From IMG/VR virus record IMGVR_UViG_2537561945_000004: 42,538 nucleotides of DNA; one strand, written 5' to 3'. Shown piece after piece: positions 3,176-5,338 of the stretch. Positions within the stretch are counted from its first letter, which is position 1, and each line of letters begins with the position of its first letter. Source of the DNA: a virus. Taxonomy: Duplodnaviria > Heunggongvirae > Uroviricota > Caudoviricetes. The notes under the pieces were generated by a model. It was not told the origin of the DNA. It saw nothing but the letters and a program-made list of their open reading frames with translations, and made no database searches. A program made the position numbers and the translations under genes.

Positions 3176-5338
3176 TTAAGCGCTGAAACCGCCGACTCTA
3201 ACTTTTAGCGTAGAGAGATCAACATTAACAGTTATGTTTAATACACCACTCCCCGCTGAAATAGAGAATAAGCGCCGTCCGCCTGACGTTCCGCCCCCCG
3301 CCGGTGGAGTGGTATCGAGTTCACCTGTGATCGATATTGAAATGGTACCCTCACGGTTAGCAACGAGTAGCTCTAAACATTCAGCCCAGGTGTTTTGTGC
3401 AGAAGACCAAGCATCGATAAGGATTCTCTGCGTCGTTCTGTTTGGTATTGCGATGGATTTGACTTCACCTGTATTTACCAGACCTTGAAAACGAGTTCCG
3501 TAATCTATCCAGCTAATGCTATAACCTGCATTTGCTGCAGGGTCTTGAGAGGTATACCAGGTCTTGGTTCTCACGCCAGTATGACCGATTGTCAGTAGAG
3601 GACGAGCAAATTGATCTCGATGAATGTATGCATTATCTCTGATCCCGTTGCTCTGCAGATCAATATCTGCAGCACGTGGATTAGGGAAAGTCGCTTTTCC
3701 ACCAACATCAAAAACATCATAATGATTTGCAACTGCAGGAATCCATCCGTTCCTGTCCAGATTTCTAAAGAAATCCTCGAAAGCCAGCCAGTATGATTGC
3801 TGATGACCTAAAAGGTTAGGGTGAACAGTCTGTATTTCAGGGGTCCGGTCAAATAATGCCGTTTCACCATATTTAGCAACAGCATCAAACCAGTATTTTT
3901 CCACATCGATAAGCACGCAACCCATTTCTACAGCGATTTTCCTGATCGCATCGTTTCCTCGAAGGAAGCGGACACCTGCTTGAATATTTACCCCATTCCA
4001 CTCAAACGTGACATTTGAGTTTGCGGCAGATGGTATAATGTTATTATCAGAGACTGGGGCCGGAGAAGATGAAGGCCATATTTGAGAAATTCCAGCCGGC
4101 ATGCTCCAGCTATATTCAGAAATATTCGGATGAGGTGTGGTTGTTAGCACAACATCCCCGCCGGCCTCCCTGACTAAATTAATAGCATTTCGAAGGCGCT
4201 GTTTAAATCCGTTTTCATTGAATGTTTGCCCGGCATTATATTGTGCGGTAGGAAAATCATTCATTCCATATATAAACAAAGCAATATCAGGATATATTCC
4301 TTCAGCAACAACTTCAGGCCATTGGTTAACAATAAAATTATTTATCGTTGAACCATTAACAGATTTGTTTGTGAAGTTAATGGGATAAATACGCTGCTTA
4401 TTTAGCGTATCGTTCATATACTCAAAAAATTTAGCAACTGGTGCCTGTGTTGCTGGATCAGGAAGCGTAGCACCAACCCCAACAGAAGAACCAAACCCAT
4501 AGAGTCGAAATAAGTTCTGATAGCCAGAAACCCCATGCCGATAAGCTGTTAATTTATTGACGAAATTTGGGAAAAGGGCCTGTGATGATCCAGACGCAGC
4601 ACGAATAGAAGCCTCTACCGTTCTTCCTGTTTCCGTAGCAACTAAGCCAGCACCGTCTTTTGATGCTAGCTTGATTGCCAAATCTGCCGTTTCAGTTTGC
4701 CCTGCAATCGGAACAGGATCCCCCTGGTCATTGAATCCAATCAGCATATTTGCTCTGGCTCGTACAGATGCCATGATTCCTACCTGACTTTCCGGAACTC
4801 GCAAAGTTCGCTGGAAAAGACCATCTGCATGATGAGTGCTGTCATTGTCTCCCGAGTCCACATAAGATTTTGTTGCTGCATCCTGTGCCTGTGACGGGTC
4901 ACGCAGATTACGAATGCGGTTGTTGAGTGCGTCGTAATAGTTCGCGATGAACGACGGCTTACGCAGCGCCAGGCGGAGAAAGCTGAAGCACTGCTGGATA
5001 AGCATGGTCAGCTTGTCGAACGCATCCTCATGTACCTCTGCGAAAAATTTCCCCTGGTTACGCAGATCAGTCTCCTGGGTAACAGGCAAGTCACGTGAGA
5101 TAGAGATTTGCCATCCGTTGGCCAGAGGTGACATCAACACAATGCTCCCACCTGAATAGCTTCCCGCCCCGGTAACGGAGTAATCGGTATCCAGAGTAAG
5201 TACCGTAATATTTTCGTTAAGGTCAGCAACCTGTACTGTCAGATCTGACTTCTTGAAAATACGAAACTTGTACGGGAAAGATGTGGTAACGCCGTTACCA
5301 GTGTATTCGTTGTGGTCAACTTCGGTTGAGACCGTCAT
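3176..5338 (-). CDS. Tail spike / tail fibre with central SGNH (GDSL-like) hydrolase domain
   Basis: 720 aa; conserved tail-fibre N-terminal anchor pattern (YTGNGVTTSFPYKF...DLTV...LPVTQETDL...LTMLIQQ); central region with SGNH-like blocks (GFGSS, GMND, VHPNLLGH); last structural gene before the lysis cassette; GGAG RBS. Confidence 0.65.
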   Translation of the reverse strand: MTVSTEVDHNEYTGNGVTTSFPYKFRIFKKSDLTVQVADLNENITVLTLDTDYSVTGAGSYSGGSIVLMSPLANGWQISISRDLPVTQETDLRNQGKFFAEVHEDAFDKLTMLIQQCFSFLRLALRKPSFIANYYDALNNRIRNLRDPSQAQDAATKSYVDSGDNDSTHHADGLFQRTLRVPESQVGIMASVRARANMLIGFNDQGDPVPIAGQTETADLAIKLASKDGAGLVATETGRTVEASIRAASGSSQALFPNFVNKLTAYRHGVSGYQNLFRLYGFGSSVGVGATLPDPATQAPVAKFFEYMNDTLNKQRIYPINFTNKSVNGSTINNFIVNQWPEVVAEGIYPDIALFIYGMNDFPTAQYNAGQTFNENGFKQRLRNAINLVREAGGDVVLTTTPHPNISEYSWSMPAGISQIWPSSSPAPVSDNNIIPSAANSNVTFEWNGVNIQAGVRFLRGNDAIRKIAVEMGCVLIDVEKYWFDAVAKYGETALFDRTPEIQTVHPNLLGHQQSYWLAFEDFFRNLDRNGWIPAVANHYDVFDVGGKATFPNPRAADIDLQSNGIRDNAYIHRDQFARPLLTIGHTGVRTKTWYTSQDPAANAGYSISWIDYGTRFQGLVNTGEVKSIAIPNRTTQRILIDAWSSAQNTWAECLELLVANREGTISISITGELDTTPPAGGGTSGGRRLFSISAGSGVLNITVNVDLSTLKVRVGGFSA

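What the first reader, a model, noticed from the sequence alone, without database searches (positions are those of the whole stretch)
3176..5338. Tail spike with an SGNH-esterase-like central domain
The receptor-binding protein combines a conserved tail-fibre N-terminal anchor with a central region showing SGNH/GDSL hydrolase-like blocks (GFGSS, GMND, VHPNLLGH). Tail spikes with this fold are known to deacetylate O-antigen (phage G7C gp63.1) rather than cleave the polysaccharide. This would predict adsorption by receptor de-O-acetylation and a host range linked to O-acetylated surface glycans.
Basis: partly seen in the sequence, partly recalled or inferred. Interest (0 to 1): 0.55.

Follow-up and report, generated by a model that had tools for sequence, protein, structure and literature searches.

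The report
Prophage tail spike carrying acetyl-esterase domain
The gene encodes the host-recognition spike of an epsilon15-like E. coli prophage. Instead of the usual sugar-cutting body it carries an SGNH esterase domain that most likely strips acetyl groups from the host's surface polysaccharide, which is a known kind of phage protein and already labelled as such in public annotation.

Summary
Window 3176..5338 (minus strand) is one intact 720-aa ORF, and GFGSS, GMND and VHPNLLGH sit at aa 281-285, 358-361 and 505-512.

- Pfam Lipase_GDSL_2 scores above its gathering cut-off.
- Ser285, Gly329, Asn360 and His506 are essentially invariant in 204 relatives.

- The link to G7C gp63.1 is fold-level only. 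There is no significant sequence similarity, no shared accessory domain, and the attachment differs.
- The true family is PHROG 18703. It is a mobile SGNH plus beta-sandwich cassette also found in phage K30 gp17.3, Klebsiella phages and P22-type prophage spikes.
- The block V Asp is replaced by Gln503 (Gln or Glu across the family).
- The likelier substrate is an O-acetylated group 1 capsule rather than O-antigen. Six of seven carrier genomes have group 1 capsule loci, and each of the two locus types was seen to encode an acetyltransferase and to sit beside a damaged O9-type O-antigen locus. This is circumstantial.

No enzymology exists for this subfamily. Verdict: a new member of a known kind, of modest interest.

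The parts
3176..5338 (-). Whole receptor-binding protein gene (720 aa plus stop codon at 3176-3178)
   Evidence: ORF list. It is 100% identical to WP_000218898.1, 'SGNH/GDSL hydrolase family protein', in E. coli BE311, F41, K99S and EC24.26. Coordinates were checked by translation.
4964..5338 (-). N-terminal virion-anchor domain (aa 1-125), epsilon15 gp20 type
4634..4963 (-). Neck or stalk (aa 126-235), ending in the swap junction ...KDGAGLVAT
   Evidence: Matches the KN1 depolymerase stalk 9m4c over aa 135-233. There is a sub-threshold T7 tail-fibre motif at aa 135-161. Homology to epsilon15 ends at aa 234, and the P22-type fusions begin to match at about aa 225. pLDDT is below 50 in the monomer model, as expected for an intertwined trimeric segment; that reading is an inference.
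3749..4591 (-). SGNH/GDSL esterase domain (aa 250-530)
4484..4498 (-). Block I, GFGSS (aa 281-285). Ser285 (nt 4484-4486) is the predicted nucleophile and Ser284 sits where GDS has Asp.
   Evidence: Ser285 is present in 204/204 family members and Ser284 in 196/204. hhalign puts GFGSSVGVGA on gp63.1 IIGDSITDGA (a weak alignment, E 0.24). The strand ends at Gly283 in the model.
4349..4369 (-). Block II, NKSVNGS (aa 324-330), with oxyanion-hole Gly329
   Evidence: Gly329 is present in 203/204. It aligns to block II of TesA and of gp63.1.
4256..4267 (-). Block III, GMND (aa 358-361), with oxyanion-hole Asn360
   Evidence: Asn360 is present in 204/204. It aligns to GGND of TesA, GIND of LAE5 and GWND of gp63.1.
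3803..3832 (-). Block V, QTVHPNLLGH (aa 503-512). His506 is the catalytic base, and Gln503 occupies the position of the usual Asp.
   Evidence: His506 is present in 204/204. The H-3 position is Gln in 112, Glu in 76, Asn in 7 and Asp in 3. In the profile alignments, the block V Asp of LAE5 (5jd3) and YxiM (2o14) falls on Gln503.
3179..3631 (-). C-terminal beta-sandwich domain (aa 570-720), probably for trimerisation and/or glycan binding
1112..3095 (-). Downstream genes of the same apparent transcription unit: two holins, GH19 endolysin, Rz (DUF2514) and a terminator-like hairpin at 1112-1139
   Evidence: ORFs, PGAP names, holin Pfam hits. Terminator-like hairpins at 5798-5815 and 1112-1139 bracket the unit. 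The order matches epsilon15, minus its serotype-conversion genes.

Best explanation
The gene encodes the single receptor-binding spike of an epsilon15-like (Uetakevirus-type) prophage inserted next to yfgI.

Architecture. An epsilon15-type N-terminal anchor and stalk (aa 1-235) fix the spike to the tail. At a conserved junction (about aa 225-235) it is joined to a mobile cassette made of an SGNH esterase domain (aa 250-530) and a beta-sandwich tip (aa 570-720). That it assembles as a trimer is inferred.

Mechanism (inferred). The spike binds an O-acetylated surface polysaccharide. Ser285 and His506 are the catalytic pair, Gly329 and Asn360 form the oxyanion hole, and Gln503 sits where Asp usually is. 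The enzyme hydrolyses the acetyl ester without cutting the chain. This receptor-modifying cycle of binding and release would let the short-tailed virion work down to the outer membrane, as described for G7C gp63.1 and proposed for the SGNH fibres of Klebsiella prophages.

Substrate (inferred, weaker). The most likely substrate is an O-acetylated group 1 (Klebsiella-type) capsule or its K-LPS form, not a classical O-antigen.

Shown here: the ORF, domain architecture, fold, conservation of catalytic residues, module sharing, and the glycan loci of the lysogens. Inferred: trimer, esterase activity, substrate, and role in adsorption.
For: Fold and motifs:
- Pfam PF13472, 41.8 bits against a cut-off of 32.9.
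- AF2 alpha/beta/alpha domain.
- Foldseek E about 1e-7 to Axe2, the CEX acetyl-mannan esterase and rhamnogalacturonan acetylesterase.

Selection on the active site: Ser285, Asn360 and His506 are in 204/204 relatives, and Gly329 and Gly283 in 203/204, across sequences down to about 30% identity.

Role as receptor-binding protein:
- The N-terminus is 69% identical to the epsilon15 tailspike.
- The gene sits just upstream of the lysis cassette at the prophage end, as in epsilon15.
- PHROG 18703 'tail fiber', E = 0, aa 198-720.
- The same cassette is fused to the P22 head-binding domain PF09008 (95% identity), to PF12571, and to the T7 fibre N-terminus. It also stands alone as the second receptor-binding protein gp17.3 of phage K30.

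Substrate hint:
- All four genomes with the identical gene carry one group 1 capsule locus (wzi-wza-wzb-wzc-wbaP-wzy plus a WcaB/CysE-like hexapeptide acetyltransferase) that is found in only 22 of 5426 genomes.
- Two of the three genomes with the 98% variant carry another group 1 locus with a WbbJ/WcaF-like acetyltransferase, found in 7 of 5426 genomes.
- wzi is present in only 577 of 5426 genomes.
- The O9-type O-antigen loci are IS-disrupted in BE311 and WCHEC005784, the one genome of each group that was inspected.

Precedent:
- G7C gp63.1 removes an O-acetyl group from LPS O-antigen, and two Klebsiella prophage SGNH fibres hydrolyse pNP-acetate (PMC13123978).
- Acinetobacter phage Aristophanes gp41 is an SGNH-type tailspike in a paper titled for a structural polysaccharide deacetylase (PMC8471582).
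- Ser-His dyads occur in CE2 SGNH esterases (PMC9487903).
Against: - No member of this subfamily (PHROG 18703) has been assayed. The tested Klebsiella proteins 164_08 and 174_38 have different architectures, and their truncated listed sequences show no obvious similarity.
- The block V Asp is missing (Gln503), which could lower or change activity.
- A near-identical distal module (4 nt differences from about aa 100 to the end) occurs in lysogens with two unrelated capsule loci, one initiated by WbaP and one by WcaJ. This argues against strict K-type specificity, or against the capsule being the receptor.
- The carrier genomes are few (7), and each group may be clonal, so the capsule association is confounded by descent.
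- The capsule locus of strain IH5 could not be located.
- Many capsule loci carry acetyltransferases, so their presence discriminates weakly.
- A lysogen's present glycans need not be those present at infection.
- The model is monomeric with pLDDT below 50 for aa 87-250, and I could not inspect coordinates to check active-site geometry.
Confidence: 0.7

Rival explanations
1. O-antigen deacetylase, as the first reader proposed by analogy with G7C gp63.1. The spike would remove O-acetyl groups from LPS O-antigen rather than from capsule.
Against: In BE311 the O9-family locus is reduced to IS-flanked fragments. In WCHEC005784 wzm is truncated by ISKpn26. There is no sequence or domain relationship to gp63.1. 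Relatives occur mainly in phages of capsulated Klebsiella and in phage K30.
Confidence: 0.15
2. A binding module without catalysis. The SGNH domain would have become a lectin-like receptor-binding domain, having lost the catalytic acid, and would only hold the polysaccharide.
For: The block V Asp is replaced by Gln503. There are no activity data for the subfamily.
Against: The nucleophile Ser, both oxyanion-hole residues and His are invariant in 204 diverged relatives, which is hard to explain without catalysis. About 37% of relatives have Glu at the H-3 position. Ser-His dyad SGNH esterases are active (PMC9487903).
Confidence: 0.08
3. An esterase with a non-glycan or deeper substrate. Examples are a lipase or deacylase acting on LPS lipid or outer-membrane lipid, or an Ape1-like peptidoglycan O-acetylesterase that helps penetration.
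Against: The domain sits in the distal part of the host-range cassette, which is swapped between phages like other receptor-binding modules. The best Foldseek hits are carbohydrate acetyl-esterases. The prophage has its own GH19 endolysin.
Confidence: 0.05
4. A polysaccharide depolymerase (glycosidase or lyase), like most tailspikes.
For: Its position and N-terminus are those of the epsilon15 endorhamnosidase spike.
Against: There is no beta-helix. Homology to epsilon15 stops at aa 234, Pfam finds no Beta_helix, and the model is alpha/beta plus a beta-sandwich.
Confidence: 0.02

Closest known systems
PHROG 18703 cassette: Escherichia phage K30 gp17.3, the second receptor-binding proteins of Klebsiella phages KpV289 and KpV766, the KL01 tail fibre, and fibres of P184, AV124 and VLCpiM5b
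   Same: They share the whole SGNH plus C-terminal beta-sandwich cassette (aa about 200-720) at 50-63% identity, with the same Pfam PF13472 hit. This is the real family of the protein.
   Different: In those phages the cassette is a free-standing 'branch' protein with a short docking peptide, or is fused to a T7-type N-terminus. Here it is fused to an epsilon15-type anchor and is the only spike of a temperate phage. None has been characterised biochemically, as far as the searched literature shows.
E. coli P22-type prophage tailspikes (635 aa, PF09008 plus PF13472; P0012-P0043)
   Same: 95% identity over the cassette (about 70% of the query).
   Different: They have a different virion-attachment domain (the P22 head-binding domain). 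No copy was found among the 5426 complete E. coli genomes searched.
Escherichia phage G7C gp63.1 esterase tailspike (PDB 4QNL)
   Different: There is no significant sequence similarity. gp63.1 has Tail_spike_N, Gp63_3rd, G7C_GBD and G7C_C domains that are absent here. It attaches through gp66 in a branched complex. It has a GDS block I where this protein has GSS.
Salmonella phage epsilon15 gp20 tailspike
   Same: 69% identity over aa 1-234. Both have the same genomic position ahead of the holin, endolysin and Rz genes at the prophage end.
   Different: The epsilon15 body is a beta-helix endorhamnosidase (Pfam Beta_helix) with a protruding esterase petal (preprint 10.64898/2026.07.31.742079; only its title and abstract opening were seen). 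Here the beta-helix is absent. The epsilon15 serotype-conversion genes between spike and lysis genes are also absent here.
SGNH tail fibres of Klebsiella prophages (164_08-KL2, 174_38-KL55; PMC13123978), Acinetobacter phage Aristophanes gp41 (PMC8471582), Pectobacterium phage Q19/PP47/PP81 spikes (PMC7693777), and the Vi-capsule acetyl-esterase tailspikes (Pickard 2010, seen only as a reference in PMC4138488)
   Same: They are the same functional class: phage receptor-binding proteins built on an SGNH esterase, proposed or shown to deacetylate capsule or O-polysaccharide rather than depolymerise it.
   Different: They have different architectures and no evident close sequence relationship. The two Klebsiella proteins have demonstrated pNP-acetate esterase activity, which this subfamily lacks.
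Bacterial carbohydrate acetyl-esterases (Axe2, CEX 6HFZ/6HH9, rhamnogalacturonan acetylesterase 1DEO, Ape1)
   Different: They are soluble metabolic or cell-wall enzymes with about 13-18% sequence identity and a canonical Ser-His-Asp triad.

Membership tests
SGNH/GDSL hydrolase superfamily (Pfam PF13472 / PF00657) | Profile match above the curated threshold | tested here: met
   PF13472 scores 41.8 bits against a cut-off of 32.9, E 2.1e-10, aa 299-513.
SGNH/GDSL hydrolase superfamily (Pfam PF13472 / PF00657) | Three-layer alpha/beta/alpha fold with a parallel central sheet | tested here: met
SGNH/GDSL hydrolase superfamily (Pfam PF13472 / PF00657) | Block I nucleophile Ser at the end of strand 1 | tested here: met
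   G283-S284-S285. Ser285 is present in 204/204 relatives and aligns to the GDS Ser of gp63.1 (weak).
SGNH/GDSL hydrolase superfamily (Pfam PF13472 / PF00657) | [quoted passage not shown] | tested here: met
   Gly329 in 203/204 and Asn360 in 204/204. Both align to TesA, LAE5 and gp63.1.
SGNH/GDSL hydrolase superfamily (Pfam PF13472 / PF00657) | Block V DxxH: catalytic His with Asp three residues before it | tested here: inconclusive
   His506 is present in 204/204. The Asp position is Gln503, and family-wide it is Gln 112, Glu 76, Asn 7, Asp 3. Dyad SGNH enzymes are known (PMC9487903), so this does not exclude membership.
SGNH/GDSL hydrolase superfamily (Pfam PF13472 / PF00657) | Esterase activity | not testable with these tools
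   Needs a pNP-acetate or polysaccharide assay.
G7C gp63.1-type esterase tailspike | Detectable sequence homology and shared accessory domains (PF18668, PF21562, PF21988, PF22245) | tested here: not met
   BLASTP gives no significant alignment of the esterase regions. hhalign gives E 0.24. gp63.1 has the four domains and the window protein has none of them.
G7C gp63.1-type esterase tailspike | Attachment as a branch on a second tail protein (gp66) | tested here: not met
   The window protein has its own epsilon15-type virion anchor. No second receptor-binding protein gene is annotated in the prophage.
G7C gp63.1-type esterase tailspike | De-O-acetylation of O-antigen required for adsorption | not testable with these tools
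   Only indirect evidence: the O9-type loci are damaged in the two lysogens inspected, BE311 and WCHEC005784.
Epsilon15 (Uetakevirus) gp20 tailspike | N-terminal particle-binding domain and gene position before the lysis cassette | tested here: met
   69% identity over aa 1-234. Synteny shown.
Epsilon15 (Uetakevirus) gp20 tailspike | Beta-helix endoglycosidase body | tested here: not met
   Homology stops at aa 234. There is no Beta_helix Pfam hit here, whereas epsilon15 has one. The model has no beta-helix.
PHROG 18703 (K30 gp17.3 / KpV289-type second receptor-binding protein cassette) | End-to-end match of the SGNH plus C-terminal domain | tested here: met
   phrog_18703 E = 0, profile positions 1-517 of 517 on aa 198-720. 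50-63% identity to phage proteins.
PHROG 18703 (K30 gp17.3 / KpV289-type second receptor-binding protein cassette) | Short N-terminal docking peptide, used as second (branch) receptor-binding protein | tested here: not met
   Here the cassette is fused to a 235-aa epsilon15-type anchor and stalk. K30 gp17.3 is a separate 517-aa protein placed after gp17.

The most novel reading that the evidence does not exclude
The spike may recognise the O-acetyl decoration itself rather than a particular sugar backbone. The basis is that an almost identical distal module (4 nt differences from about aa 100 to the end, in prophages that are otherwise about 97% identical) sits in lysogens with two unrelated group 1 capsule loci. 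One locus is initiated by WbaP and the other by WcaJ, and each has a different kind of hexapeptide acetyltransferase. If true, this would be a backbone-tolerant, acetyl-centred receptor-destroying enzyme, a bacterial-virus counterpart of influenza C HEF and coronavirus HE, using an unusual Ser-His-Gln/Glu active site. It would help explain why SGNH receptor-binding proteins are less K-type-specific than depolymerases.
Probability: 0.18. Interest if true: 0.55.

Novelty: new member of a known kind. Interest (0 to 1): 0.3.

Why it matters
Esterase-type receptor-binding proteins are now recognised as a common alternative to depolymerases in temperate phages of capsulated enterobacteria, but their substrates are almost all unknown. 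This locus offers a simple system with one spike, one prophage, and lysogens whose capsule loci carry identifiable acetyltransferase genes. In it one could test by knock-outs whether capsule O-acetylation is the receptor determinant. The cassette is shared with lytic Klebsiella and E. coli K30 phages, so a result would carry over to phages considered for therapy. In itself the finding is an expected member of a described class, and RefSeq already annotates it as an SGNH/GDSL hydrolase.

Tried and rejected
- A sequence search of the PDB with the protein and with a 30-sequence profile found only N-terminal and stalk homologues plus marginal SGNH hits. It did not find G7C gp63.1.
- Direct BLASTP and hhalign against gp63.1 fetched from the G7C genome were not significant. 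The link is therefore fold-level only.
- hhalign against E. coli TesA aligned only blocks II and III at E 0.054.
- I looked for sequences of the experimentally active Klebsiella SGNH fibres in the supplements of PMC13123978. The listed sequences are truncated, have different N-terminal architectures, and neither GFGSS nor VHPN occurs in them. No experimental evidence could be transferred.
- The paper on phages K5-2 and K5-4 raised the possibility that K30-type fibres are depolymerases. That activity belongs to beta-helix (pectate-lyase-like) proteins, not to this cassette.
- I tried to find the capsule locus of strain IH5 by coordinate offset. The genome is rearranged and the attempt failed.
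- The two capsule-locus acetyltransferases are not homologous beyond the hexapeptide fold, so no shared acetylation chemistry can be claimed.
- NCBIfam has no model for the spike.
- The full text of the epsilon15 tailspike preprint and of Pickard 2010 could not be retrieved.
- A beta-helix or glycosidase reading was considered and rejected on the fold.
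Full report
**The object.** Window 3176..5338 holds one 720-aa ORF on the minus strand with an ATG start. A GGAG lies 8 nt upstream. A fourth SGNH block, NKSVNGS, is at aa 324-330. The gene is 100% identical to one annotated 'SGNH/GDSL hydrolase family protein' (WP_000218898.1) in E. coli BE311, F41, K99S and EC24.26, and 98.1% identical in three further genomes. Only 7 of 5426 complete E. coli genomes carry it full length, while about 500 carry only a related N-terminal part.

**Genomic setting.** The gene lies in an epsilon15-like prophage inserted beside yfgI. Reading along the minus strand, the order is virion genes (portal, capsid, T7 gp14-like core proteins), the spike, two holins, a GH19 endolysin, Rz, and then the prophage end. 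Epsilon15 has the same layout, but it also has two serotype-conversion genes between spike and lysis genes, and these are missing here. Terminator-like hairpins at 5798-5815 and 1112-1139 bracket the spike-lysis unit.

**Anatomy of the protein.**
- Residues 1-234 are 69% identical to the epsilon15 tailspike, and homology ends abruptly at ...GAGLVA. This part also matches phrog_1640 and the solved N-termini of other podovirus fibres.
- From about aa 198-225 to the end, the protein matches PHROG 18703 'tail fiber' from end to end with E = 0.
- The full-length AlphaFold2 model used a 30-sequence alignment and has mean pLDDT 70. It gives a confident N-terminal beta domain, a low-confidence stalk (aa 87-250), an alpha/beta/alpha domain (aa 250-530, pLDDT 75-90) and a beta-sandwich (aa 570-720, pLDDT 85-92). 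The low stalk confidence is what one expects when an intertwined trimer is modelled as a monomer; that reading is an inference.

**Is it an SGNH hydrolase?** Yes.
- Pfam Lipase_GDSL_2 scores 41.8 bits, above its 32.9-bit gathering cut-off.
- Foldseek against the PDB returns SGNH carbohydrate esterases at E about 1e-7: a Parabacteroides GDSL protein, Axe2, the two-domain acetyl-mannan esterase CEX and rhamnogalacturonan acetylesterase.

**Active site.** I collected 262 related proteins and aligned the 204 that span blocks I-V.
- Ser285, Asn360 and His506 are invariant (204/204). Gly283 and Gly329 are in 203/204, and Ser284 in 196/204.
- Ser285 is therefore the predicted nucleophile, not Ser284. 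Three things support this: a weak hhalign alignment placing GFGSSVGVGA on gp63.1 IIGDSITDGA, the strand ending at Gly283, and the invariance pattern.
- The residue three positions before His506 is canonically Asp. Here it is Gln503, and across the family it is Gln 112, Glu 76, Asn 7 and Asp 3. Profile alignments to LAE5 and YxiM put their Asp on this Gln.
- SGNH esterases of family CE2 work with a Ser-His dyad (PMC9487903), so this does not argue strongly against activity. It is a family peculiarity worth testing.
- I could not inspect model coordinates, so the geometry is unverified.

**The real family, and how far G7C is.** The cassette (SGNH plus beta-sandwich) is 50-63% identical to several phage proteins:
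- Escherichia phage K30 gp17.3, a separate 517-aa second receptor-binding protein placed after the 903-aa gp17 fibre;
- the 511-aa second receptor-binding proteins of Klebsiella phages KpV289 and KpV766;
- fibres of KL01, P184, AV124 and VLCpiM5b.

It is 95% identical to the distal part of 635-aa E. coli prophage spikes that start with the P22 head-binding domain (PF09008). It also occurs behind PF12571 and T7-type N-termini, and in Klebsiella, Serratia and Brenneria. An exhaustive HMMER scan of 1.84 billion representatives found 194 clusters. Only about 16 share the C-terminal domain, and the rest share just the esterase domain. The cassette is itself modular.

By contrast, gp63.1 fetched from the G7C genome shows no significant BLASTP or hhalign similarity. 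It carries four accessory Pfam domains that are absent here. The comparison with G7C therefore concerns how the protein works, not family membership.

**What might the substrate be?** I inspected the polysaccharide loci of the lysogens.
- BE311 has a group 1 capsule locus, here called locus A: galF-wzi-wza-wzb-wzc-wbaP-wzy, a 172-aa hexapeptide acetyltransferase (WcaB/CysE-like), glycosyltransferases, wzx and gnd. The adjacent O9-family O-antigen locus is reduced to fragments between IS elements.
- That capsule locus occurs in 22 of 5426 genomes, including all four with the identical spike.
- WCHEC005784, which carries the 98% variant, has a different group 1 locus, here called locus B. It has wcaJ and a 224-aa WbbJ/WcaF-like acetyltransferase, and its wzm is truncated. 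This locus occurs in 7 of 5426 genomes, including LS992185.
- wzi, the marker of group 1 capsules, is in 577 of 5426 genomes.
- So at least 6 of 7 carriers are group 1 capsule strains. Both capsule locus types encode an O-acetyltransferase, and the one genome of each type inspected has an O-antigen locus that is likely defective. This fits an O-acetylated capsule (or K-LPS) as receptor better than an O-antigen.
- The evidence is circumstantial. There are few genomes, each group may be clonal, acetyltransferases are common in capsule loci, and strain IH5 could not be assessed.
- The WCHEC005784 variant differs by 42 nt, and 38 of them fall in the first 300 nt. From about aa 100 onward the genes differ at only 4 nt, although the surrounding prophage is about 97% identical. 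The same distal module therefore serves in hosts with two unrelated capsule loci whose acetyltransferases are not homologous. This points to relaxed, perhaps acetyl-centred, specificity or to a receptor other than the capsule. PMC13123978 likewise reports that SGNH receptor-binding proteins are less K-locus-specific than depolymerases.

**State of knowledge.**
- PMC13123978 describes SGNH receptor-binding proteins as prevalent in Klebsiella prophages and shows pNP-acetate esterase activity for two of them. Those two have other architectures.
- PMC12115436 catalogues them bioinformatically in clinical isolates.
- PMC7693777 models them in Pectobacterium phages.
- PMC8471582 describes the SGNH-type tailspike gp41 of Acinetobacter phage Aristophanes, under a title naming it a structural polysaccharide deacetylase.
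- A 2026 preprint classifies the Przondovirus and Mydovirus examples as 'capsule surface remodellers' of unknown substrate.
- The epsilon15 spike itself is reported to bear an esterase petal (title and abstract opening only).
- I found no assay of any PHROG 18703 member.

**Verdict.** The protein is a new member of a known kind, and its class is already correctly labelled in RefSeq. Interest is modest at 0.3. What raises it slightly is the Asp-less active site, the very wide sharing of the cassette across phage types, and a tractable genetic test of capsule O-acetylation as a phage receptor determinant.

Noticed in passing
window 5497-5512 and ORF 5534..5791 (+): A perfect LexA-box-like palindrome, CTGTATATTTATACAG, is the only match in the window (0.02 expected by shuffling). 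It lies 21 nt upstream of an 85-aa ORF that diverges from the spike gene. That ORF is 42% identical (E 1e-16) to the C-terminal part of the frameshifted BRO-N gene at 6925..7651. It may be an SOS-controlled antirepressor of the Tum/Gfo type.
   Followed up: partly
window 8280-9553: An IS3-family element annotated 'IS3-like element IS2 family transposase', with overlapping ORFs at 8280-8690 and 8648-9553, appears to interrupt the DUF4760 gene that is intact in BE311. Downstream genes are shifted by about 1336 nt relative to BE311; I inferred this from ORF coordinates and did not align the two.
   Followed up: partly
window 3096-3175, compared with L010 (epsilon15) 9255-10646: Epsilon15 carries two serotype-conversion genes (beta-polymerase and alpha-polymerase inhibitor) between tailspike and lysis genes. 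Here that space is only 80 nt, and no glycan-modifying gene was seen near the spike. This prophage apparently lacks that superinfection-blocking conversion module.
   Followed up: partly
window 3176-5338 compared with L009 9001-11163 (WCHEC005784): Of the 42 nt differences between the two spike alleles, 38 fall in the first 300 nt (13 of the 15 aa changes are in aa 8-66). The remaining roughly 1860 nt differ at 4 positions, although the flanking prophage is about 97% identical. This suggests a recent exchange or sweep of the distal module, with a breakpoint inside the anchor domain.
   Followed up: partly
L004 (BE311, 1845001-1886200), L003 and L006 (WCHEC005784): The lysogens have Klebsiella-type group 1 capsule loci in place of colanic acid. 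Their O9-family O-antigen loci are broken by IS1, ISKpn26 and IS66 elements. The WCHEC005784 locus also encodes a 425-aa right-handed beta-helix protein between wzx and gnd.
   Followed up: partly
window 5814-6542 (-): A 242-aa protein with an N-terminal hydrophobic segment and a Cys-rich C-terminus (CxxC pairs; weak sub-threshold Stc1 Pfam hit). It lies just upstream of the spike unit and ends at a strong terminator-like hairpin. Its function is unknown.
   Followed up: no
window 4290-4440 (aa about 300-350 of the spike): GC content falls to 0.31 in one 150-nt stretch inside the esterase domain, against 0.41-0.55 in the rest of the gene and about 0.49 in the window. This was not explained.
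   Followed up: no
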